In this document: positions 10,332 through 19,153 of the stretch, piece after piece
How positions within the stretch are numbered: position 1 is the stretch's first letter
How the letters are laid out: each line of letters starts with the position of its first letter
From: Spirochaetia bacterium
GTDB lineage: Bacteria > Spirochaetota > Spirochaetia > SZUA-6 > Bin103
DNA length: 64,000 nucleotides
Direction: 5' to 3'
Assembly (NCBI GenBank): GCA_965208575.1
Contig: CBDBOV010000001.1
Location: 224,001 to 288,000 of the forward strand
Position numbers and translations under genes: made by a program
The notes under the pieces: generated by a model
Databases searched by the model: none
What the model saw: the letters and a program-made list of their open reading frames with translations, nothing else
What the model was told of the DNA's origin: nothing

Positions 10332-13214
10332 TCACTCCTTGACCACGACCGTGATGCGGTTCTCGGCCTCCGCGCTGACCAGCATGCGGACCGTGCCGGT
10401 GTTGCGCCCGAGCGTGGCGATCGCGTTGGAGTGCGGCGGCTGGATGCGGTCGCTGAGGCTGGTCAGGGAGTGCAGGTACGGCCCCTCCTGGGACGAGCGG
10501 CTCGCCAGGTCCGGCCCGATGCAGTCCGACACTATCTCCGGCGGGTCGTAGCGGTAGTTGTACAGGTTGATCGAGCCCAGCCGGTACTCCACGCCGCCGG
10601 CGTGCGAGGCGGTCCAGGTGCCCCGGTTGTAGCGGTACGGCGCCGCGGCCGCGGTGTTGTCCGACAGCAGGGTCGCCACCGCCCAGTCGGCGAGCAACTG
10701 TCCGAACGGGACGTCATGGCCCATCGCCCGCAGCGCCGCGTCGACCGCCGGGAAGCCGGCCTTGTCGCTCTGCACGATTGCGCTGAACAGCTCGGCGCCG
10801 CCGTAGGTGCGCGCCAGGTAGGCGCCGAAGGCGTACTTGCCGGCGTAGTCGGCGATCTTGCGGTTCCACACGGTGACCCGTTGGTCGTTGAACAGGTTGT
10901 AGTAGGGCAGGCGGCCGCGGCGGTTGCCCGGCGCGCCCGCCGTCGGGTCGTCGTAGGCGACGCCGCGCGGTCCGCGCACCATCATCTTGTCGGCGACCAG
11001 GTCCTGCGCCACCTCCGAGGCCATCTCGTTGAGCCAGATTTCGCTGACGGTGTTGCGCAGCACCGGCTTCTGGTAGAAGTGGATCATGTGCTGAAACTCG
11101 TGGGCGAGGGCGCTGATCATGCGGCTCGGCTGGGGGTCGGTGATCTCCCAGGTGGGACCATCCGGTATTGCAAACCATGGCGCGTCCATGAAGAAGGCGA
11201 GCCGCTCGGCCGTCAACTGCGGGCCGGGTTCGTCGGGGTCGCGCAGGAAGTTGTGCTTGCCCCAGAAGTACCCGCCGCGCCGGCATTCGCCCCGTTCCGG
11301 TGCGCCGTCGGCGTCGATGTCGTGCAGCAGCACGTGGATCTCGCGCGCGGCCGCCGGCGGAATCAATCTCGCACTCCCGTGCGGCCCCCACGGCTCGCCG
11401 TAGATCGCCGTCACCCAGTCGTGGATGTCGTTGTCGGCGCCGGGGCGGAGAAACCGGTCCGCCATGGCGTCGACCATCTCGGCGGTGACGCACGGCCCGG
11501 CGCCGCGGCAGCCGGCCCCCCAGTCGTCGTCGGCCACCCAGAACGCCGCCGTGCGCGAACCGTCGGTAACCACCCTGCGGGCGGTCGCCGGGATAGGGAC
11601 CAGGTTGCGGTCGTCGTCCTGGTCGTAATAGGTGAACCGGTCGCCTTCCGCCACCGGGTCGGGCCCGGCCTGCGCGTGCGCACGCCGGCTCGCGCGCGCC
11701 GACGGGGCGGGCAGCGGCGGGTTGTTGTTGAACTCGGTGATCCACTCGCGCTCGCCGAGCGACGGGATCGTTGCCGGTCGCGGCGCCGGCTGGTACTCGG
11801 CCGGCAGTTCGTCCAGCAGCCCCTTGGCGACGGCCTCGACCCGGTCGAGTCTCCGGACCTCCGGCTGCACGTCGTAGTACGCGGTGTTGGTGGCGATCAG
11901 GTACACCTCGGCCGTGGCATCGCCGAGGTCGAGCGTGTATACCGTCTTGTCGAGGGTCTCGCCGTCCGCGTTGAGGACGAACACCTGGTCGCCGTGCCCG
12001 CGGTAGGTGGAGCCGAGGCGCCTGGTGCGCGGCGGCGGGCCGTCGCCCACCTCGAACCGGGTGATCTCGCGCTCGTCGCGCGGGCCGACACGCGTCCCGG
12101 GACCGGTGAAGGTGCCGGAGAAGGTGCTGACCTGTCCGTGGTTGTACACGCTGACGACGTAGTTGGTCTGCTCCACCGTGCCGCAGTTCCACCAGTGGTC
12201 GAGGCGCACCTCCCAGAGCCCTTCCGGCGGCGTGCCGCGCGTCCACCCGATGTGCTCGTTGCGGATCCAACTGCGACGGCCGCATTCCGAGTTGAGGCGG
12301 AAAAAGCCGCCGGTGCTCGACTCGGTGTTGCCGTAGTAGACCGCCTCGCCGGTGCCGTCCACCACGGTCAGGTCCAGGTCGGCGGCCGAATCCCACGACA
12401 CGGTTACCATCACGTCCGCGAAGTCGATGGCGGCGTGCAACACCTCGTGGCACGTGACCGGACCGACCGCGCCGCCCGCGTCCACCGCGGCCACGTTCAC
12501 GCAGCCGGTTTCGATCTCGGGGTCGACGTCGAAGCGGACCTGCCCGCGCACCTGGTACGATGCCGCGGTATCCGAAAGGTCGACCTCGTAGTAGCCGAAG
12601 CGCTCGTCGCCCACCGATACGAGCAGCTTGTCGACGCTGGCGCCGGGCTCCGGCGTAACGTCGACGAACGCCGTTCCTCCGGCCATGAGAACCCGGTTGC
12701 CCGAGACGGTGACGGCAGGGCCTCCGCTCGGCTCAGGCAGATCCGCGAACTTCGCCACTCCGGTGTCGTCTCCCACCGAGACCGCGGATATGATCGACCT
12801 GACAATGGTCCGGGGTTCGACGGTGATGGCGAAGCTCAACGTGTCGGACCTGCCGTTCACGTCCCGCACCCGGTAGGTGAGGGGGTACTCGCCCTGCGCG
12901 GTGGGCGTGCCGCTGAGCGTGCGCTCGTCCGCGTCGAAGGCAAGCCCCGGCGGTATATCGGGACCGAGCGAATAGGTCAGCGTGCCGCTTCCGCCTTCGG
13001 CGAACGGCAGCACCACCGGTTTGATTTCGACATCGGCCTGGTAGGTCAGGTCGCGCACCGGGGCGGCGAACTCGGGTACGCGTACGGGCGCCGCCGTGGG
13101 GCAGCCGATCAGGGCCAGGGTGGTGAGGGCGGCCAGGAGGGCCGCGGCGACACGGCGATGACCGCGGGTGAGTGGCTGTATCGTGCCGTAACCGTATACA
13201 GGTTGTTTTATCAT
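10332..13214 (-). CDS. M30-like Zn metalloprotease lipoprotein, copy 2 (intact)
   Basis: ALAHEFQHMIHF and WLNEMASEVAQD; lipobox ALIGC; same domains and C-terminal ENRITVVVKE as copy 1; ATG 13214 lies 6 nt after TACAGT. Confidence 0.85.
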   Translation of the reverse strand: MIKQPVYGYGTIQPLTRGHRRVAAALLAALTTLALIGCPTAAPVRVPEFAAPVRDLTYQADVEIKPVVLPFAEGGSGTLTYSLGPDIPPGLAFDADERTLSGTPTAQGEYPLTYRVRDVNGRSDTLSFAITVEPRTIVRSIISAVSVGDDTGVAKFADLPEPSGGPAVTVSGNRVLMAGGTAFVDVTPEPGASVDKLLVSVGDERFGYYEVDLSDTAASYQVRGQVRFDVDPEIETGCVNVAAVDAGGAVGPVTCHEVLHAAIDFADVMVTVSWDSAADLDLTVVDGTGEAVYYGNTESSTGGFFRLNSECGRRSWIRNEHIGWTRGTPPEGLWEVRLDHWWNCGTVEQTNYVVSVYNHGQVSTFSGTFTGPGTRVGPRDEREITRFEVGDGPPPRTRRLGSTYRGHGDQVFVLNADGETLDKTVYTLDLGDATAEVYLIATNTAYYDVQPEVRRLDRVEAVAKGLLDELPAEYQPAPRPATIPSLGEREWITEFNNNPPLPAPSARASRRAHAQAGPDPVAEGDRFTYYDQDDDRNLVPIPATARRVVTDGSRTAAFWVADDDWGAGCRGAGPCVTAEMVDAMADRFLRPGADNDIHDWVTAIYGEPWGPHGSARLIPPAAAREIHVLLHDIDADGAPERGECRRGGYFWGKHNFLRDPDEPGPQLTAERLAFFMDAPWFAIPDGPTWEITDPQPSRMISALAHEFQHMIHFYQKPVLRNTVSEIWLNEMASEVAQDLVADKMMVRGPRGVAYDDPTAGAPGNRRGRLPYYNLFNDQRVTVWNRKIADYAGKYAFGAYLARTYGGAELFSAIVQSDKAGFPAVDAALRAMGHDVPFGQLLADWAVATLLSDNTAAAAPYRYNRGTWTASHAGGVEYRLGSINLYNYRYDPPEIVSDCIGPDLASRSSQEGPYLHSLTSLSDRIQPPHSNAIATLGRNTGTVRMLVSAEAENRITVVVKE

Positions 13215-13309
13215 GTCGTGACTGTATAAATAACACAGTGATCTCATGTAGGGAACAGACTGAACCCGGACAGCAATCCCGCCCGTGGCGGCGCACCGGC
13301 GCGGGTCGA

Positions 13310-13503
13310 GCCTACGCCCGAGACGCGCTCGTTGCGGACGTTGTCGGACTTGTGCTCGTCGACTCTTGGGAAGCGGACGCCGCCGCTCTCGACCTTTCTG
13401 CTTGCGAAGTAGACTTCGTGGCTGGTCGGGTCGGCCACGTGCAGGTCCAGGTCGGCGTCGGTGTCCCAGGATACCGTGACCTGCACGTCGCTGTACTCGG
13501 TGC
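13310..13503 (-). pseudogene. Fourth protease paralog fragment (YfaP-like segment), part downstream of the insertion
   Basis: YSDVQVTVSWDTDADLDLHVADP...VYF...VESGG...VRNE matches the three paralogs. Confidence 0.8.
13496..13503. repeat. 8-bp target-site duplication, left copy (CTCGGTGC)
   Basis: Identical to 15576-15583; both copies directly abut the terminal inverted repeats. Confidence 0.9.
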
Positions 13504-13526
13504 GGGTGGGAACGCCGAAAGCGGTA
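13504..13526 (+). repeat. Left terminal inverted repeat GGGTGGGAACGCCGAAAGCGGTA
   Basis: The reverse complement of 15553-15575 is GGGTGCGAACGCGGAAAGCGGTA (2 mismatches). Confidence 0.9.
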
Positions 13527-13882
13527 GCCGTGGACCGAAAGTGAGATGCATGAGGCAGTACGGTGACTCAGTGATATGGAAGACGATGAAACCGATGCCC
13601 GAGCATCGCCGACCCACAGGAATTTCGGACCAGACAGCGTGCCGTCCCGGCAGATCGTGAGCACGGAAAAAATCGCGAAAAAACTGCGCGCACCCCTTGA
13701 CGCGATTTTCGGGGCTCATGGTGGCTCGCTACGGCCCGCGGCGGTCCCTCCGACTGCCCCGGAACGACTTGGCCTCCGTTGCCGCGACAGCGCCCCGTGG
13801 CGCGGCCTTCCAGGCGCCGTTTCGGCGCAGTCCAGGGCTCGGAAAAATATGTTATTTCCAATCCCATGTTATACTTATGAGT

Positions 13883-15457
13883 ATGAGTGAGTCGTCTTCG
13901 CCCACCCCCTGGTCCACCGTCGCCGCGCTGCCCGACTACCTCCTGCTGGCGCAGACCCGGCAGCTCGCCCGCCACGAACAGGCGCTGCAGATCCTGGTGC
14001 TCGACCACCTGCGCGAGATCGAGGCGCGCAGTCTCCACCTGACCCGCGGGTATGGCAGTCTGTTCGACTACGTGGTGCACGAACTGGGCTACACCGCGGC
14101 CGCCGCTTGGCGGCGCATCAAGGCGATGCGGCTGTGCACCGGGACCGGCGCTGCGCGTGAGCTGCTGCAGGACGGCTCGCTGAACCTGAGCAACGCGGCG
14201 CAACTGCAGAACCTGTTCGAGCGCAACGACCGCAGCCGGGGCCGCCCGCCGGTAAGTACCGGAGCAGGTGGCGCCGTGGGCGGTGCGCCACCGAGTGACG
14301 GCGCACCGGGCGAGCCGGGACCGGCGGCGCCGGCGCGCGGCGGCGAGCACGATCCGGCGCCACCGGCAGCCGGGCCGGTGCTGGACGCGGCGGCGCGGGA
14401 GAAGCTGGTCCGGCAGGCGGCGGGCAAGAGCACGCGCGAAGTGCAGCAGATGCTGGCCGAGGTGGACCCGGAGTTGGCGCAGCCGAGCGACCGGATGCGT
14501 GCGCTCGGAGGCGGGCGCTGGGAGTTGAAGGCGGCGGTCGACGCGGAGTGCCGGCATGGGCTGGAGAAGCTGCTGATGCTGCTGTCGCACACGGATCCGC
14601 ACCTGACGCTGGGCGGGCTGGTGGCGCGGCTGGTGCGAGACGGCCTGGACCGCTACGACCCGGCTCGGCCACCGCGTGTGCGGCGTACGGGCGGTGGCGG
14701 CTCGGTCGACGGCGCAGGATCCGCGAGCACGCCAGCGCGGCCTGCGGAAGTCGAGCATGGCGAAACGAACTCCACGGCGGTGCGGGATATTGTCCGCTGC
14801 TCCGATTCGGCGCCAAAGGAGTCCGCGCCGGTGGGGGACAGAGAGGGGCACACCACTTCGCCAGCGAAGTGCCGATCCGAAGCCCAACCCGGGCGCAGGC
14901 CGCACGCGGTGGCACGGAACGGCACCGGTCCGGCGGTTTCGGCGGCGAAGCGGGACACGGAGGCCGAGCGCGGCGGTTCGAAGTCTGCGCCGGTGCGGGA
15001 CACGGTCCGGCGCTCGGAGTCGGCGGCGAAGCGGCTTGCGTACGCCGCCGGGCATGGCGCGGTGGGGCCGGCGGTGCGTTCGCCGGCAGTGGAGCGGCAC
15101 CTTGCCGCGTTGCGCAGCCTCGGCGCGGTGCCGGGCTCCCGGTCGCGGTACATCCCGGTAGCGGTGAAGCGGGAGGTGTGGCGCCGCGACCAGGGTTGTT
15201 GCACCTATGTCGACCGCCACAGCGGGCGGCGCTGCGGCTCCCGCTATCGGCTGGAGATCGACCACATCGTGCCGTTCGCGCTCGGCGGCGGCGCGGAGCC
15301 GCGGAATCTGACGCTCCATTGTCGAGCGCACCACAGGTTGCGCCACGCTCAGCGCCATGCTCACGCCGAGAGTGTGCCGAATGAAGCCCGGCGCGCTCCG
15401 GTCTCCGCGGTCGATCCGAACGACCACGGGCGGACCGTCGGATCGCAGGCGGTGTAA
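13883..15457 (+). CDS. HNH endonuclease with a DUF222-like N-terminal region and a low-complexity linker
   Basis: N-terminal LDHLREIEARSLHLTRGYGSLFDYVVHELGY...RRIKAMRL. C-terminal RYIPVAVKREVWRRDQGCC...C...LEIDHIVPFALGG...NLTLHCRAHH. TGtTATACT lies 7 nt before ATG 13883 (alternative ATG 13877). Confidence 0.88.
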   Translation: MSESSSPTPWSTVAALPDYLLLAQTRQLARHEQALQILVLDHLREIEARSLHLTRGYGSLFDYVVHELGYTAAAAWRRIKAMRLCTGTGAARELLQDGSLNLSNAAQLQNLFERNDRSRGRPPVSTGAGGAVGGAPPSDGAPGEPGPAAPARGGEHDPAPPAAGPVLDAAAREKLVRQAAGKSTREVQQMLAEVDPELAQPSDRMRALGGGRWELKAAVDAECRHGLEKLLMLLSHTDPHLTLGGLVARLVRDGLDRYDPARPPRVRRTGGGGSVDGAGSASTPARPAEVEHGETNSTAVRDIVRCSDSAPKESAPVGDREGHTTSPAKCRSEAQPGRRPHAVARNGTGPAVSAAKRDTEAERGGSKSAPVRDTVRRSESAAKRLAYAAGHGAVGPAVRSPAVERHLAALRSLGAVPGSRSRYIPVAVKREVWRRDQGCCTYVDRHSGRRCGSRYRLEIDHIVPFALGGGAEPRNLTLHCRAHHRLRHAQRHAHAESVPNEARRAPVSAVDPNDHGRTVGSQAV

Positions 15458-15552
15458 GGCCGCGCTCCATCGCGCCGCCGATCCAGTTCGCCAGTCCCCG
15501 GATGTTCGCATCCGTGCCATCGAGCGGGTAGACCATGCTGCAATGACCTGCG

Positions 15553-15575
15553 TACCGCTTTCCGCGTTCGCACCC
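15553..15575 (-). repeat. Right terminal inverted repeat
   Basis: TACCGCTTTCCGCGTTCGCACCC, followed immediately by the TSD CTCGGTGC. Confidence 0.9.
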
Positions 15576-15633
15576 CTCGGTGCGGGCGCCGCCGACCACG
15601 TGGCACTCCGGCGGGCCCACCGCACCGCCGGAA
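15576..15633 (-). pseudogene. Fourth protease paralog fragment, part upstream of the insertion (includes right TSD 15576-15583)
   Basis: SGGAVGPPECH matches SSGAVGPSVCH, AGGAVGPVTCH and DSGASGPPACH in the paralogs. Confidence 0.75.
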
Positions 15634-15635
15634 CG

Positions 15636-15810
15636 GCCTGCTCTACGGCGACGTCGAAGACGCGCAACGCGACGGCCCAAATGTCGGGCCCGGCCGATCC
15701 GGCACACTCAGCCGGGCATCGGTCATCGTGATCAGTTGTCCCACGGGTACGCCAGTTTCGGTTGGCTATCTGCTGCGGGCCAAAGTGCAGCCGCGCGGGC
15801 CCCCGCGTCA
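15636..15810 (-). pseudogene. icd: Degenerate duplicate of the icd 5' end and upstream region
   Basis: Near-identical to about 6696-6902 (e.g. ggcatcggtcatcgtgatcagttgtcccacgggtac), with a deletion of about 31 bp. Confidence 0.85.
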
Positions 15811-15893
15811 TCCGTCACCGGTCCGCGTTCCGCCTTGGCGCCGCGGCGACGGCCGGCGCACCGCTACTGTGTGCTCCCGTGACCGGTTCGAGG

Positions 15894-16232
15894 TCAGCCG
15901 GGATTGCCGGCGAGGGTGTAGGAGTCTACCTGCAACTGGGCCGGCAACAGCGGTCTGTGTCCCTGCCGCACCACGCGCCCGCGTACCGTGACGTTGAATG
16001 GTTGCAGACGCTGCAGCTCGTCGGCGAGTTCGCCGACGAGCTCGTAGCGCTCCGATTCGGTGACGAGCACCAGCATCGTGAACGGCTCCGAGCCGGTCAC
16101 CACCACGTCGCCGCTCACCGCGATGACCTCGGCCGATTCCGGCGGTTCCGGCACGGCGGGCTGGTCCCCCGACGAGACGCACGCCAGCAGTAACCCGGCG
16201 GCCAGGGCCGCCGCCGCGCCGGCGCGCGTCAT
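15894..16232 (-). CDS. Small lipoprotein (partner B of the metalloprotease)
   Basis: Lipobox LLLAC; IAVSGDVVVTGSEP...YELVGE...VTVRGRVV...PAQLQV; ATGA overlap with the protease copy 3 stop. Confidence 0.78.
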   Translation of the reverse strand: MTRAGAAAALAAGLLLACVSSGDQPAVPEPPESAEVIAVSGDVVVTGSEPFTMLVLVTESERYELVGELADELQRLQPFNVTVRGRVVRQGHRPLLPAQLQVDSYTLAGNPG

Positions 16233-19153
16233 TCCTTGACGACCACCATGATGCGGTTTTCGCTCCCCGCGCTGACGGTCAGGCGGACCGTCCCGGTGGC
16301 GCGCCCGATGGTGGCGTACATGTTGGAGTGCGGCGGCTGCGAACGCGCGCTGAAGGTGCGCAGTGAGTGCAGGTACGGACCAAACAACGCCATGCGCCGC
16401 ACCTGCTCCGTGGTGAGGCCCTCGACCGACGCGCCTGGTGGCAGCCACGCGTAGTTGAACAGGTCGATCGATCCCAACCGGTATTCGATGCTGCCGACGT
16501 GCGATCTGGTCCAAGTCCCGGTATTGTAGCGGTGTGGGGCGGGGGCCGCGGTGTTGTCCGACAGCAGGGTGGCGACCGCCCAGTTCGCCAGAACGTCCTC
16601 GAACGACACGTCGTACCCGAGACCGCGCAGCGCACCCATGATCGCCTCAATGCCGTATGCATCGCTCTGCACGATCCGGCTGAACAACTCGGCGCCGTAG
16701 GTGCGGGCCAGGTAGGCGCCGAGCGCGTAGTTGATCGAGTAGTTGGCGAGACTCCGTTCCCAGATCGTCACCCGGATGTCGTTGAAGAAGTTGAATCTGG
16801 GCAGGCGGCCGCGGCGGTTGCCCGGTTCGCCCGCGGTGGGATCGTCGTGGGCGACGCCGCGCGGTCCTCCGATGACGAGCTTGTCGGCGATCAGATCCTC
16901 TGCCACTTCGGACGCCATTTCGTTGAGCCACGTCGCGCTGGCGGCGTCGCGCAGGACTATCTTCTGGTAGAAGTGGATCATGTGCTGGAACTCGTGCGCC
17001 AGGGTTCCGATGACGGTGCTCGGCCAGCCGTCGGTCACCTCCCAGGTTTCGCCGGTACGCGCTGCCAGCAGGGCGGAGTCCAGCACGAACAGCAACCGTT
17101 CGTTCGAGAACCGGAACAGCCGGTCGTCATCCTGCCTGATGACGCTGTGCACGCCCCAGAAGAAGCCGATGATGCGGCTTTCGTCCGGTTCCGGGATGCC
17201 GTCGTCCTCGACGTCGAACAGGAGAATGTGAATCTCGCCCGCCGCCTCCGGCGGAATCAGCGCCAGTTCCTCCTCCGGCGGAGGCGGATCGTACGGACCC
17301 CACGGGGCGCCGAACACGTTCGTGACCCAGTCGTAGATGTCGTTGCCGGCGCCGGGCCGGAGAAACCGCTGCGCTGTGGCGTCCACCATCTCCTGCGTCA
17401 CGCACTTCTCGGCGCCGCCGCATTGCGCGTGCCACTCGCTGTCGGCCACCCACAGCGCCGCGGTGACGGTGCCGTCCGTGACCACCTTGCGCGCGGTGGC
17501 TGGAATCTCGACGAGGTTCCTGTCGTCGTCACGGTCGCGGAAGGTGTACCGGTCGCCCTCGGCGACCGGTACCCTCTCTTCCTGCGACTGCGCACGCAGG
17601 TTTGCGCTCTGTCCGGACGATCCGCCCAGGAACGGCGGGTGGTTGTTGAAATCCACGACCCAGTCCCGCTCGGGTGTCGGCTCGCTTACCGAGGGCCTCG
17701 GTTGCGGTTCGTATTCGGCCTCGGTCACGGCCGCGCGCCGGCCCTTGGCCTGGGCATCGAGGATGTCGAGCCGCTCGACGCTTGGATCGGCGCTGTAGGT
17801 CGCACCGTTGGTGGCAATCACGTACACGTCCGCCGAGGCGTCGCCGAGGCTCAGCGTGTACAGCGTATTGCGGAGGAGCTCGCCGTCCGGATTGAGAACG
17901 AACACCTGGTCGCCGCTGCCGCGGTAGCTGGACGAGATGGAGGGAAGAATCGGGGCCCGCTCCGCGCCCGGCACTTCGAATGTCGTGATCACTCGGCCGC
18001 TGCCGCGTCCGCCTTCGTTGCCGGGACCGGTGAACGTGCCGGAGAAGGTGCTGGTGCGGCCGTGGTTGTAGATGCTTACGATGTAGTCGATCTCTTCGAC
18101 TACGCAGCTCTCCCAGTGATTGACGCGCACCTCGTAGGGACCCGGCGGGGGAGTGCCGGCCGACCATCCGATGTGTTCGTTGCGCACAAACGGAAACTTC
18201 CCGCACGACGAGGCGATGTCGAGGACGCCGCCGCTTTCGACCCGCGGGCTGTTGAAGTAGACCTCGTCACCGTCGGGGGCCAGCACGTGCAGGTCCAGGT
18301 CGGCGTCGACATCCCACGACACGGTGATCTGCACATCGCCGCCGCCGGCCGCGACCACGTTCAGCGGGTGACACGCTGGCGGTCCGGACGCCCCGCTGTC
18401 ATCGACGGCGGTCACCTCGAGGCAGATTTCCGAGAGTGCCGGATCGAGATCGAAGGGGAGTTAGCCGGTGAGCCGATGCGGGGAGTGGGTGCTGCCCACG
18501 TCGACCTCGTAGTAGCCGAACGGCTCGCCGCCGATGGAGACCAGCAGCTTGTCCGCGGGGCGATCGGAGTCGACGTCGAGGAAGAACGACCCGCCGTTGA
18601 TGCCCACGACATTGCCGGTCAGGGCGATGGCCGGTCCGCCGCCGGGTGCCGGCACGTTCTCGAATCTCAGCCGGCCCTCCACGCCGCTGGCGGCGACGGC
18701 CGACAAGATGGTCCTGACGACGGTGGATTGTTCCACGGTGATGGTGAAATTGAGCGTCGCGGTGGCGCCCTCGGTATCCGTAGCCCGGTAGGCCATCGCG
18801 TAGTCGCCTACCTCGCTCGGCGTCCCGCTCAGGGTGCGGGCATTGGCGTCGAACGTAAGACCCGGCACGTTCGGGCTCAAGCTGTAGGTGAGGGCGCCGC
18901 GGCCCGCCGTGGCGGGGGGCAGCAGGAGTGTCGCAATCTCTCGGCCTGCCGGATAGGTGACTCCGAACTCGTCCATGGTCTCCAGGAACACCGGTGACGG
19001 TCCCTGTTCCTCCTCCGGCTTCGGTTCCTTCGATGCCGGGGTTGCGGCAGGGCAGCCGATGATGGCGAGCATGGCGAGCGCGGCCAGGAGAGCCGCGGCG
19101 AAGGTCCAGGGTCGACGGTGCCGGCGCGCACTGCGGATTAGTGTTCGTTTCAT
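16229..19153 (-). pseudogene. M30-like metalloprotease lipoprotein, copy 3, with one in-frame TAA at 18461-18463
   Basis: ORFs 18461-19153 and 16229-18415 share a frame. HRLTG*LPFDLDPAL aligns with HRLVGEVRFDLDPAL and VRGQVRFDVDPEI. HEFQH is intact. Confidence 0.85.

What the first reader, a model, noticed from the sequence alone, without database searches (positions are those of the whole stretch)
13496..15583. Transposon-like element with TIRs and an 8-bp TSD that encodes an HNH nuclease but no transposase
Seen: 23-bp TIRs (13504-13526 and 15553-15575, 21/23 identical) are flanked directly by an exact CTCGGTGC duplication. Deleting the element and one TSD joins two protease-paralog fragments in frame (GAVGPPECHVVGGARTE|YSDVQVTVSWDTDADLDL), so this is a real insertion event. 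The only convincing gene inside is a DUF222-like/HNH protein with no DDE, HUH or recombinase motif. Known: TIR plus 8-9 bp TSD is the signature of DDE transposases (e.g. IS256/Mutator-like, IS4), while free-standing HNH genes normally spread without TIRs. Inference: either a non-autonomous cassette moved in trans with a nuclease as cargo (analogous to TnpB/IscB passengers), or an element class in which the HNH protein takes part in mobility or homing.
Basis: partly seen in the sequence, partly recalled or inferred. Interest (0 to 1): 0.88.

Follow-up and report, generated by a model that had tools for sequence, protein, structure and literature searches.

The report
HNH-nuclease cassette riding borrowed transposon ends
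This is a real, recently inserted, multi-copy mobile element that has no transposase of its own: it carries an HNH nuclease gene between ends copied from a resident Mutator-like (ISKra4-family) insertion sequence and is most likely moved by that element's transposase.

Summary
TIRs lie at 13504-13526 and 15553-15575 (21/23), flanked by an exact CTCGGTGC duplication. Removing the element restores an ORF that aligns through the junction with both neighbouring Peptidase_M30 paralogues.

It is not a one-off. The genome holds about 21 related loci plus a second clade (about 45% aa identity). Six copies have both ends, and four of those have different exact 8-bp TSDs.

The key new fact is a 1438-bp insertion sequence ('IS-B', 10 near-identical copies). 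It has 8-9-bp TSDs and a 434-aa ISKra4-family (Mutator-like DDE) transposase, and it starts with the same 25 nt (24/25). Two internally deleted IS-B copies with their own TSDs show that it works in trans.

In relative G010 the HNH elements carry different TIRs, and these match G010's own ISKra4 IS (23/25).

Two things remain open:
- The HNH ORF is under purifying selection (median dN/dS 0.37).
- The promoter+ORF module also occurs, multi-copy and without detectable TIRs, in a genome where no ISKra4 transposase was found (G011).

The nuclease may therefore help its own spread. 'DUF222-like' is not supported.

Verdict: a new variant of a known kind, moderately interesting.

The parts
13496..13503 (.). 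Left copy of the 8-bp target-site duplication, CTCGGTGC
   Evidence: It is identical to 15576-15583.
13504..13528 (+). Left terminal inverted repeat. 23 nt pair with the right end. 25 nt match the IS-B left end at 24/25.
   Evidence: (I1). Own-genome matches start here. Contig loose ends start here.
13559..13643 (+). Nested copy of an ~85-nt dispersed hairpin-rich repeat. It is an independent small insertion, not part of the core cassette.
   Evidence: 52 BLAST hits genome-wide with unrelated flanks. Contigs of runs X19 and X20 skip exactly 85 nt, 13558->13644. It lies in the opposite orientation in diverged copies.
13870..13875 (+). TATACT, a -10-like hexamer directly upstream of the start codons. 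It is conserved at the start of the cassette in other genomes.
   Evidence: Read. The conserved CTTGACTCAA...TATACTTATG...ATG start is seen in 8 of 8 G011 copies. That it functions as a promoter is an inference.
13877..15457 (+). HNH nuclease gene. Starts are in-frame ATGs at 13877 or 13883, and the stop codon is included. Domain layout, numbered from residue 1 = codon 13880: N-terminal helical domain aa ~19-120, second helical domain aa ~166-258, variable low-complexity TSAAK-type repeats, HNH domain aa ~423-494.
   Evidence: ORF. Pfam HNH. 15-member alignment with invariant C441, C452, D461, H462, N476 and near-invariant C481, H484, H485. AF2 model. PHROG HNH families.
14745..15031 (+). Imperfect direct repeats inside the ORF (variable linker). 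They account for the length differences between copies (2033-2412 bp).
   Evidence: D1, D2; copy lengths; alignment gaps.
15146..15361 (+). HNH catalytic and zinc-finger domain coding region
   Evidence: ZRANB3 HNH at E 1.2e-4; McrA, GVE2, IscB and Cap5 HNH folds.
15553..15575 (-). Right terminal inverted repeat. It matches the IS-B left end at 22/23.
   Evidence: Own-genome matches end at query 2080/2081.
15576..15583 (.). Right copy of the 8-bp target-site duplication, CTCGGTGC
13244..13503 (-). C-terminal part of the interrupted 127-codon relic, which is homologous to the N-terminal region of the neighbouring Peptidase_M30 paralogues
15584..15707 (-). N-terminal part of the same interrupted relic ORF

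Best explanation
The 2072-bp element (13504-15575) is a non-autonomous derivative of an ISKra4-family (prokaryotic Mutator-like, DDE) insertion sequence. In structure it is a mobile insertion cassette.

It keeps only the ~25-nt transposase-binding termini of the resident IS ('IS-B', 1438 bp). In place of the transposase gene it carries a self-promoted gene for a nuclease with two helical N-terminal domains and a C-terminal HNH domain.

The IS-B transposase, made from other loci, binds the shared termini and inserts the cassette with an 8-bp staggered cut, giving the CTCGGTGC duplication. This copy landed in a relic of a Peptidase_M30 paralogue.

Shown: the anatomy, the multi-copy status, the independent TSDs, the shared termini and TSD length with a transposase-bearing IS, trans-mobilisation of defective IS-B copies, and co-variation of termini with the resident IS in another genome.

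Inferred: that the IS-B transposase is the enzyme that moves it, and that the HNH protein is an active nuclease whose function benefits the cassette lineage. It is kept under purifying selection, but its substrate is unknown.
For: 1. The family is real. One search gives 90 matches in the genome, and groups them into 27 loci: 21 at 73% nt identity or more (clade A) and 6 weak ones (clade B).
2. Six clade A copies have both ends. Four of the six have exact 8-bp TSDs, and all four differ: CTCGGTGC, TTATGTGG, CAACATTA, TCCGACGC. One is 7/8 and one is imperfect.
3. Clade B (about 45% aa identity, 3-3.6 kb) also has related TIRs. Of 12 loci inspected, exact 8-bp TSDs were readable at 3: ACGCCGGA, GGATGAAG, ATGGTGCT.
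4. IS-B has 10 full copies (9 at 100% and 1 at 99.93% nt identity to the query copy). Its TIRs are GGGTGCGAACGCCGAAAGCGGTAGC / GGGTGCCAATGCCAAAAGCGGTAAC and its TSDs are 8-9 bp. Its 434-aa protein matches transpos_ISKra4 NF033572 at E 1.6e-58.
5. The window element's left end matches the IS-B left end at 24/25, and its right end matches at 22/23. Beyond about 25 nt there is no similarity.
6. The other ISKra4-like IS of this genome (IS-C) has different TIRs and mostly 9-bp TSDs. IS-B is therefore the specific partner.
7. Two 570-bp IS-B deletion derivatives share the same deletion junction, lie at two loci, and have their own TSDs. A 75-bp mini element also has these TIRs. This shows trans-mobilisation.
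8. In G010, at least 40 HNH elements (88-94% identity) carry GGGCGCACTTCCAATTTGTTGGTAC-type TIRs with 8-bp TSDs (CACCGTGT, ACCGCGGG). G010's own ISKra4 IS (L045, 1405-2927) has the same termini at 23/25, and the similarity runs to about 38 nt with one indel.
9. The G009 copy has a perfect IS-B-type left TIR and an exact TCTCTCAC TSD.
10. In the single query copy tried per genome, the closest copies were found where an ISKra4 transposase is present: G000 97-99%, G003 up to 95%, G010 88-94%. Where none was found they were more distant: G011 82-90%, G017 at most 82%.
Against: - The IS-B protein scores 198.8 bits, just under the curated NF033572 cut-off of 205. Its Pfam hit is only UPF0236 at E 6.5e-6.
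- No experiment and no raw reads show movement. Only contigs were available and no clean empty-site allele was seen. One X19 contig joins 13489 to 15600 with 30 letters of the expected length but a different sequence.
- Some genomes have many HNH copies but no intact ISKra4 transposase found: G011 (30 HNH matches, 0 transposase matches, one contig, 96% complete), G012 (23 matches, one fragment), G017 (57 matches, best E 5e-7).
- In G011 the ~1.45-kb promoter+ORF unit has sharp common boundaries in about 18 copies. I detected no TIR/TSD in the 8 copies examined.
- The interior is not decaying as a dispensable passenger would. dN/dS has a median of 0.37 (range 0.21-0.53) in the 63 of 66 pairs with dS > 0.05, among 12 intact clade A copies. 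A 13th copy with a stop codon was dropped.
- G003 copies lie in larger shared repeats that I could not resolve.
- Related genomes are not independent samples.
Confidence: 0.8

Rival explanations
1. The HNH cassette (promoter + ORF) is itself the selfish mobile unit. Its nuclease cuts specific DNA and the gene is copied in by repair, in a homing-like way. It has repeatedly colonised ISKra4-derived scaffolds. Transposition of the TIR-bounded composite is a secondary, added route of spread.
For: - Homology between the different scaffold families is confined to the cassette. The window element versus the G010 element and versus G011 aligns only from about 35 nt after the ATG into the ORF.
- The G010 element interior (303-1683 of 1803) equals the TIR-less G011 unit at 83% identity, starting exactly at the promoter.
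- G011 has about 18 copies with the same sharp left boundary, no detected TIR/TSD, and no ISKra4 transposase found.
- The ORF is under purifying selection in paralogous copies.
- The N-terminal domain weakly resembles ParB/KorB-type DNA-binding domains, which would fit a sequence-specific nuclease (Z 5-6.7 only).
Against: - No empty scaffold lacking precisely the cassette was found in G000. The one short derivative (C2:180875-181943) is an internal deletion that keeps the first 74 codons.
- G011 copies are old (82-90% identity) and their short flanking arms are mosaic, so diverged or different ends cannot be excluded.
- Every young copy in G000 has a TSD, which marks transposition and not homing.
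- No cleavage site is known.
Confidence: 0.15
2. The HNH protein is the element's own transposase or an obligatory co-factor of transposition, forming a new class of HNH-driven TIR transposon.
For: - It is the only ORF with a family hit inside the element.
- It is conserved and intact in many copies.
Against: - The termini and TSD length are those of a DDE-transposase IS that has a single ORF and 10 near-identical copies without any HNH gene.
- Termini co-vary with the resident ISKra4 IS in G010.
- G014 has 17 ISKra4 matches and 1 HNH match, so the transposase does not need the HNH protein.
- Defective IS-B copies and a 75-bp mini element moved without an HNH gene in cis.
- No fold other than HNH nuclease and helical DNA-binding-like domains was seen.
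Confidence: 0.03
3. The HNH gene is ordinary host-beneficial cargo, for example a defence nuclease, and the host keeps it for that reason.
For: - Purifying selection on the ORF.
- HNH nucleases are common defence effectors. Structural neighbours include McrA, Cap5 and Cascade-HNH.
Against: - No PADLOC defence family matches at E <= 0.01.
- There are tens of copies per genome in 20 of 23 genomes of the family. Host-level selection would need only one or a few.
- Copies insert into and disrupt other sequences.
Confidence: 0.02

Closest known systems
Mobile insertion cassettes (MIC231 with IS231, Bacillus cereus group). MIC is named as a class, with Chen et al. 1999 cited, in PMC6199540 (passages read). 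The MIC231 details are recalled.
   Same: TIRs of a cognate IS enclose a passenger gene and no transposase. The cassette is moved in trans. It has the same TSD as the cognate IS. Similarity to the IS is limited to the termini.
   Different: - The cognate here is an ISKra4-family (Mutator-like) IS, not an IS4-family one.
- The cargo is always the same nuclease family.
- The family is amplified to tens of copies per genome.
- It appears in at least two different TIR scaffolds.
- The ORF is under purifying selection.
ISKra4 group of prokaryotic Mutator-like (p-MULT 4) elements, Guerillot et al. 2014 (PMC3942029, passages read)
   Same: The partner IS-B and IS-C match the ISKra4 transposase model, have GGG-starting TIRs and give 8-9 bp TSDs. 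The paper notes that four ISKra4 elements carry extra genes of unknown function.
   Different: - Those elements keep their transposase. The window element has none.
- Which extra genes they carry is in a supplementary table that I could not open, so an HNH passenger there cannot be excluded.
ISC / IscB (and TnpB) non-autonomous nuclease-carrying transposons, Kapitonov et al. 2016 (PMC4810608, abstract seen in the listing)
   Same: A transposase-less mobile element whose only gene is a nuclease with an HNH domain. It depends on a transposase encoded elsewhere. The nuclease is conserved although it is not the transposase.
   Different: - IscB has a split RuvC domain and a guide RNA, and belongs to IS200/IS605-type elements without TIR/TSD (recalled).
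- Here there is no RuvC. guided_IscB NF040563 matches only the HNH part, at 25.8 bits against a cut-off of 175.
- No Rfam RNA was found in 13000-16000.
- The mobilising enzyme is a DDE transposase.
REP13E12 / DUF222-HNH repeat family of mycobacteria. It is listed as a repetitive-element category in PMC10589994 (passages read).
   Same: A multi-copy, lineage-specific repeat family whose ORF ends in the same HNH subtype (36% identity over 67 aligned columns to this genome's DUF222-HNH proteins).
   Different: - No DUF222 domain was detected here (0 of 15 members; hhalign aligns only the HNH region).
- This genome's true DUF222-HNH genes form a separate 2.23-kb element family with different TIRs.

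Membership tests
Mobile insertion cassette (non-autonomous IS derivative with passenger gene) | Terminal inverted repeats like those of a cognate autonomous IS in the same genome | tested here: met
   24/25 and 22/23 identity to the IS-B left end.
Mobile insertion cassette (non-autonomous IS derivative with passenger gene) | No transposase gene inside; one or more passenger genes instead | tested here: met
   The only ORF with a family hit is the HNH protein. NF033572 does not match it. tblastn with the IS-B transposase gives no hit inside any HNH element.
Mobile insertion cassette (non-autonomous IS derivative with passenger gene) | Same target-site duplication length as the cognate IS, at independent insertion sites | tested here: met
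   Exact 8-bp TSDs in 4 of 6 two-ended clade A copies. IS-B TSDs are 8-9 bp.
Mobile insertion cassette (non-autonomous IS derivative with passenger gene) | Mobilisation by the cognate transposase supplied in trans | not testable with these tools
   Only indirect evidence: defective IS-B copies transposed, and termini co-vary with the resident IS in G010.
ISKra4-family insertion sequence (autonomous) | Encodes an ISKra4-type DDE transposase | tested here: not met
   The window element has none. The partner IS-B does (E 1.6e-58, 198.8 bits against a cut-off of 205). IS-C scores 230 bits, over the cut-off.
MITE | Small (a few hundred bp) and non-coding | tested here: not met
   It is 2072 bp with an intact 525-codon ORF. 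A true 75-bp mini element with the same TIRs exists at C5:265363-265437.
DUF222 / REP13E12 HNH proteins | DUF222 (PF02720) domain N-terminal to the HNH domain | tested here: not met
   0 of 15 members hit PF02720 at E <= 0.01. The six-frame PF02720 search of the genome finds 5 other genes and none of the HNH-element copies. hhalign aligns only the HNH region. The profiles are shallow, so very remote homology is not excluded.
IscB / OMEGA nucleases | RuvC domain split by HNH, plus an associated guide RNA | tested here: not met
   NF040563 scores 25.8 bits against a cut-off of 175, over the HNH part only. No Rfam family at E <= 1 in 13000-16000.
HNH nuclease superfamily | HNH beta-beta-alpha-metal motif with the catalytic His/Asn/His and zinc-binding Cys | tested here: met
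   PF01844 in 15 of 15 members. Invariant D461, H462, N476, C441, C452 and near-invariant C481, H484, H485. PDB HNH matches.
ParB/KorB-type HTH DNA-binding domain (N-terminal domain) | Shared fold over most of the domain at a convincing score | tested here: inconclusive
   KorB 8qa8 Z 6.7 (rmsd 3.1, 99 aligned), ParB 6s6h Z 6.4, KorB 1r71 Z 6.0, Spo0J 1vz0 Z 5.3, SopB 3mkw Z 5.0, VirB 3vwb Z 4.9. All are below the tool's caution line of Z 8 to 13 for helical models.

The most novel reading that the evidence does not exclude
A large family of protein-only nucleases (two helical, possibly ParB-like DNA-binding domains plus HNH) has at least 1023 relatives in the protein collection. These nucleases live as obligate hitchhikers on Mutator-like (ISKra4-family) DDE insertion sequences. 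The promoter+ORF cassette moves between TIR scaffolds so that it matches whichever ISKra4 transposase is resident. It is kept under purifying selection because the nuclease actively promotes the cassette's retention or spread. This would be a DDE-transposon, guide-RNA-free counterpart of the TnpB/IscB strategy. A second nuclease family (DUF222-HNH) in the same genome appears to do the same with other TIRs.
Probability: 0.3. Interest if true: 0.8.

Novelty: new variant of a known kind. Interest (0 to 1): 0.6.

Why it matters
Non-autonomous IS derivatives with cargo are known, and so are transposase-less elements that carry nucleases (IscB/TnpB). This case combines both in a new setting.

- One nuclease family is amplified to tens of copies per genome across a bacterial family whose closest named relatives are sponge-associated 'Spirochaetaceae bacterium' MAGs.
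- It sits in the termini of Mutator-like DDE insertion sequences.
- Its termini track the resident transposase in different genomes.
- Its ORF is under purifying selection.

If the nuclease helps the cassette persist or spread, that would extend the idea that transposon-borne nucleases are selfish retention or homing devices. The idea would then cover DDE transposons as well as HUH and serine transposons, and protein-guided nucleases as well as RNA-guided ones.

It would also give a concrete, testable pair: the IS-B transposase plus the cassette.

It is also a practical annotation warning, because these elements would be missed by transposase-based IS finders.

Tried and rejected
**One-off nesting of an HNH gene in a decayed IS.** Rejected because of the many copies and two clades.

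**HNH as the transposase.** Rejected; see the rival explanations.

**A structured RNA in the 376-nt leader.** No Rfam family at E <= 1 in 13000-16000. The conspicuous 85-nt segment is a separate dispersed repeat.

**IS-C as the partner.** Rejected because its TIRs differ and its TSDs are mostly 9 bp.

**TIR/TSD in G011.** Tried three ways: a pattern search with up to 7 mismatches, the repeat finder, and an exhaustive 16-mer inverted-repeat scan of 800 nt on each side of 8 copies. Nothing convincing was found. The ends are short and mosaic.

**Empty sites for the G011 left arm.** A 90-nt arm query gave 8 hits, most of them at known cassette flanks. One arm without a cassette (L094) looked like the 3' end of a coding sequence. 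My recalled resemblance to an HsdS C-terminal motif got no support: Pfam found nothing in the L056 upstream ORF at E <= 1. I dropped this.

**G003.** Its copies sit in larger shared repeats with an IS-C-like terminus just downstream. This is unresolved.

**Fold searches.**
- Foldseek against the PDB gave no match at E <= 0.001, only HNH domains at weak E.
- VIA-align gave HNH folds and ParB/KorB-like matches at Z below 8.
- The whole model is poor (mean pLDDT 56.3). I did not fold the domains separately.

**Family libraries.** PADLOC gave no family. PHROGs gave only generic HNH families.

**Reads.**
- Only Logan contigs were available, so starts, ends and rare alleles cannot be judged.
- Parts of the stretch without cover in run X1 mean nothing.
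- Sponge and marine metagenome labels are given only for the four runs laid.

**Literature.** Searches listed no paper describing HNH-carrying ISKra4-type cassettes. I read only listings, abstracts and the passages cited.

**Not used:** Complex prediction, the search of protein representatives, the listing of cluster members.


Full report
**Observation.** The sequence is as described. CTCGGTGC stands at 13496-13503 and at 15576-15583. The inverted repeat 13504-13526 / 15553-15575 (21/23) is the top-ranked of 271 inverted pairs in the region. Because the TIR begins with GGG, the direct repeat can be read as 11 nt. Comparison with other copies fixes the boundary at 13504 and 15575: own-genome matches begin at query position 9 and end at 2080/2081, and contig loose ends in run X19 begin at 13504. 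Removing 13504-15583 gives a 127-codon frame. It aligns without a gap through the junction (after residue 44) to both neighbouring genes, at E 1e-20 and 2e-17. Both neighbours are Peptidase_M30 proteins. The target was therefore a short relic of a third paralogue, and the insertion is real.

**A family, not a single event.** The window lies in a 6.5-Mb, 6-contig genome of 67% G+C. The element matches 27 loci: 21 at 73% nt identity or more (clade A) and 6 weakly. tblastn shows a second clade of about 12 loci at about 45% aa identity (clade B).
- Six clade A copies have both ends. Four have exact and different 8-bp TSDs (CTCGGTGC, TTATGTGG, CAACATTA, TCCGACGC), one is 7/8 and one is imperfect.
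- Clade B elements are 3-3.6 kb with internal 72-nt tandem repeats. They end in related TIRs. Of 12 loci inspected, 3 show exact 8-bp TSDs: ACGCCGGA, GGATGAAG, ATGGTGCT. The others were truncated or unclear.

**The partner.** The terminal 25 nt also begin a different repeat. This is a 1438-bp element, 'IS-B', with 10 full copies, 9 at 100% and 1 at 99.93% nt identity to the query copy.
- It has imperfect TIRs and 8-9-bp TSDs.
- It has one 434-aa ORF that matches the ISKra4-family transposase model at E 1.6e-58 (198.8 bits, just under the curated 205) and ISLre2 at E 2.4e-22. The Pfam hit is UPF0236.
- ISKra4 is one of three lineages of the p-MULT 4 Mutator-like DDE transposases (PMC3942029, passages read).
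- The window element's left end matches the IS-B left end at 24/25, and its right end matches at 22/23. Similarity stops after about 25 nt.
- A second ISKra4-like IS ('IS-C', 1534 bp, 10 copies, 29% aa identity) has other TIRs and mostly 9-bp TSDs. IS-B is therefore the specific candidate.
- IS-B works in trans. Two 570-bp copies with the same internal deletion sit at two loci with their own TSDs. A 75-bp mini element has the same TIRs and a 7/8 TSD.

**Other genomes.**
- The HNH protein was found in 20 of 23 other genomes of the same family, mostly with tens of matches each, and in 0 of 17 genomes of other families of the order.
- The ISKra4 model was found in 18 of those 23.
- The IS-B-type terminus (up to 3 mismatches) occurs in 14 of 24 genomes, G000 included. 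The reversed control pattern gave 0 everywhere.
- G009 has an HNH element with a perfect IS-B-type left TIR, a degenerate right TIR and an exact TCTCTCAC TSD.
- G010 has none of these termini. Even so, its 40 or more HNH elements (88-94% identity) are bounded by another TIR (GGGCGCACTTCCAATTTGTTGGTAC type) with 8-bp TSDs. G010's own ISKra4 IS has the same TIR at 23/25, and the similarity reaches about 38 nt with one indel.
- Termini of the nuclease elements thus follow the resident transposase-bearing IS in two genomes with two different TIR types. This is the strongest argument for mobilisation in trans.

**Results that do not fit a plain passenger.**
1. Three genomes have many HNH copies but no intact ISKra4 transposase found: G011 (one contig, 96% complete, 30 HNH matches, no transposase match), G012 (23 matches, only a fragment) and G017 (57 matches, best E 5e-7).
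2. In G011 a ~1.45-kb unit has the same sharp left boundary at a promoter-like CTTGACTCAA...TATACTTATG...ATG in 8 of 8 copies examined. About 18 copies are 82-90% alike. I found no TIR or TSD. Short flanking arms are shared in mosaic subgroups.
3. Homology between the scaffold families is confined to the cassette. The G010 interior equals the G011 unit at 83% identity, from the promoter onwards.
4. The ORF is under purifying selection among paralogous copies of one genome. Nei-Gojobori dN/dS over the first 290 codons of 12 intact clade A copies has a median of 0.37 (range 0.21-0.53) in the 63 of 66 pairs with dS > 0.05. A 13th copy with a stop codon was left out.

With one query copy per genome, the closest copies were seen where a transposase is present: G000 97-99%, G003 up to 95%, G010 88-94%. 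Where none was found they were more distant: G011 82-90%, G017 at most 82%. That fits dependence on the transposase. It rests on few and related genomes.

**The protein.** Fifteen members from 11 genomes align with a conserved N-terminal domain, a second conserved domain, a variable TSAAK-type repeat linker and an HNH domain with invariant Cys, Asp-His and Asn.
- Pfam finds HNH in 15 of 15 and DUF222 in 0 of 15.
- The AF2 model is poor overall (pLDDT 56.3). It is confident for residues 19-120 (helical, block means 74-92) and 423-494.
- Foldseek recognises only HNH domains, and weakly.
- VIA-align adds repeated ParB/KorB/SopB/VirB-type matches to residues 32-200 at Z 4.9-6.7. This is below the tool's caution line, so it is a lead only.
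- There is no PADLOC family. PHROGs give generic HNH families.
- The collection holds 1023 relatives at E <= 1e-5 among 8000 candidates scored. The few named ones are 'HNH endonuclease' or 'hypothetical protein' of Spirochaetaceae bacterium MAGs.

**DUF222.** The genome does encode five true DUF222-HNH proteins. They share only the HNH motif with the window's family. They lie in their own ~2.23-kb units, four copies at 96-98% identity, with different TIRs (CCAGGACTATCCCACGCT type) and, where readable, 8-bp TSDs. The same TIR bounds a 1402-bp element whose 355-aa protein has no Pfam or NCBIfam hit. So a second nuclease family in this genome also rides in transposase-less TIR elements. I did not follow this further.

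**Reads.** Only assembled contigs of sponge and marine metagenome runs were available. Laid on 12600-16500, they give the following:
- The element is far deeper than its flanks: about 15 against up to about 1000 in X19. This is summed contig depth, not a copy number.
- Contigs in two runs skip exactly the 85-nt unit.
- One X19 contig joins 13489 to 15600 with 30 letters, the length expected for an empty site, but with a different sequence. It is probably an uninterrupted paralogue or strain. It is not proof of an empty allele.

**Conclusion.** The element is a non-autonomous, ISKra4-type cassette carrying an HNH nuclease, most likely moved by the IS-B transposase (confidence 0.8). This is a new variant of known kinds: mobile insertion cassettes (PMC6199540, passages) and nuclease-carrying non-autonomous transposons such as ISC/IscB (PMC4810608, abstract).

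Two questions are open and more interesting. Does the nuclease contribute to the cassette's spread or retention? Does the cassette move between scaffolds on its own?

Noticed in passing
window 13559-13643 (and 52 BLAST hits across G000, e.g. C2:72318-72402, C4:674735-674819): An ~85-nt dispersed repeat with three hairpins and a T-run (consensus begins GAGTCTGTACGGTCACTCCGTGAC). Its flanks are unrelated from copy to copy. It lies in either orientation inside different HNH-element copies. Contigs of two runs lack exactly these 85 nt. It has no Rfam hit. It could be a small MITE or a REP-like or terminator-like unit.
   Followed up: partly
G000:C2:556766-558996, C4:674624-676854, C5:1088123-1090356(-), C3:737800-739816(-), and a diverged copy near C5:217600: A second transposase-less TIR element family (~2.23 kb, 96-98% identical) encodes true DUF222+HNH proteins. 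It has different TIRs (CCAGGACTATCCCACGCT / CAGGGCGATCCCATGCT) and 8-bp TSDs (e.g. AGGGGTAG). Three of the copies have the 85-nt repeat about 470 nt upstream of the gene.
   Followed up: partly
L090 501-1902 (= G000:C1:460891-462292); similar termini at C5:66425, C6:579118, C6:599924: A 1402-bp element is bounded by the DUF222-element TIRs. It encodes a 355-aa protein (L090 721-1788) with no Pfam or NCBIfam hit. It may be the autonomous partner of the DUF222-HNH elements, with an unrecognised transposase.
   Followed up: partly
G000:C4:511218-514101: Two identical IS-B copies lie in tandem, separated by 8 bp (GAACTCAC). The same 8 bp flank both outer sides. The pair lies directly next to the end of an IS-C copy (C4:509676-511209). 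This looks like a tandem-dimer or repeated-insertion product of an active IS.
   Followed up: no
G000, e.g. C4:144056-145589 (10 copies): IS-C is a second ISKra4-family IS (1534 bp, 478-aa frame, NF033572 230 bits). Its TIR is GGGTGCATTCTTTCTCTGTGGTAGCGG and its TSDs are mostly 9 bp. An IS-C-like terminus lies just downstream of several G003 HNH copies (L073, L075, L076).
   Followed up: partly
window 10332-13229 and 16229-18415 (minus strand), with the relic at 13244-13503 + 15584-15707: Two full-length Peptidase_M30 paralogues flank a short relic of a third. This is a local tandem gene family into which the element inserted.
   Followed up: partly
window 13870-13885; G011 loci L031, L052-L059 at the cassette start: The -10-like TATACT lies only 1-7 nt before the start codons. 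In G011 the sequence is TATACTTATGGCATG. This suggests a leaderless mRNA for the HNH gene.
   Followed up: no
G011 loci L052, L055, L056, L059 (about 60 nt left of the cassette) and L094 1501-1544: Four of 8 G011 cassettes share a ~60-nt left arm that reads like the 3' end of a coding sequence, with a stop codon abutting the cassette's -35 box. One such arm occurs without a cassette. This hints at a preferred insertion site. Pfam gave no family for the one upstream ORF tested.
   Followed up: partly
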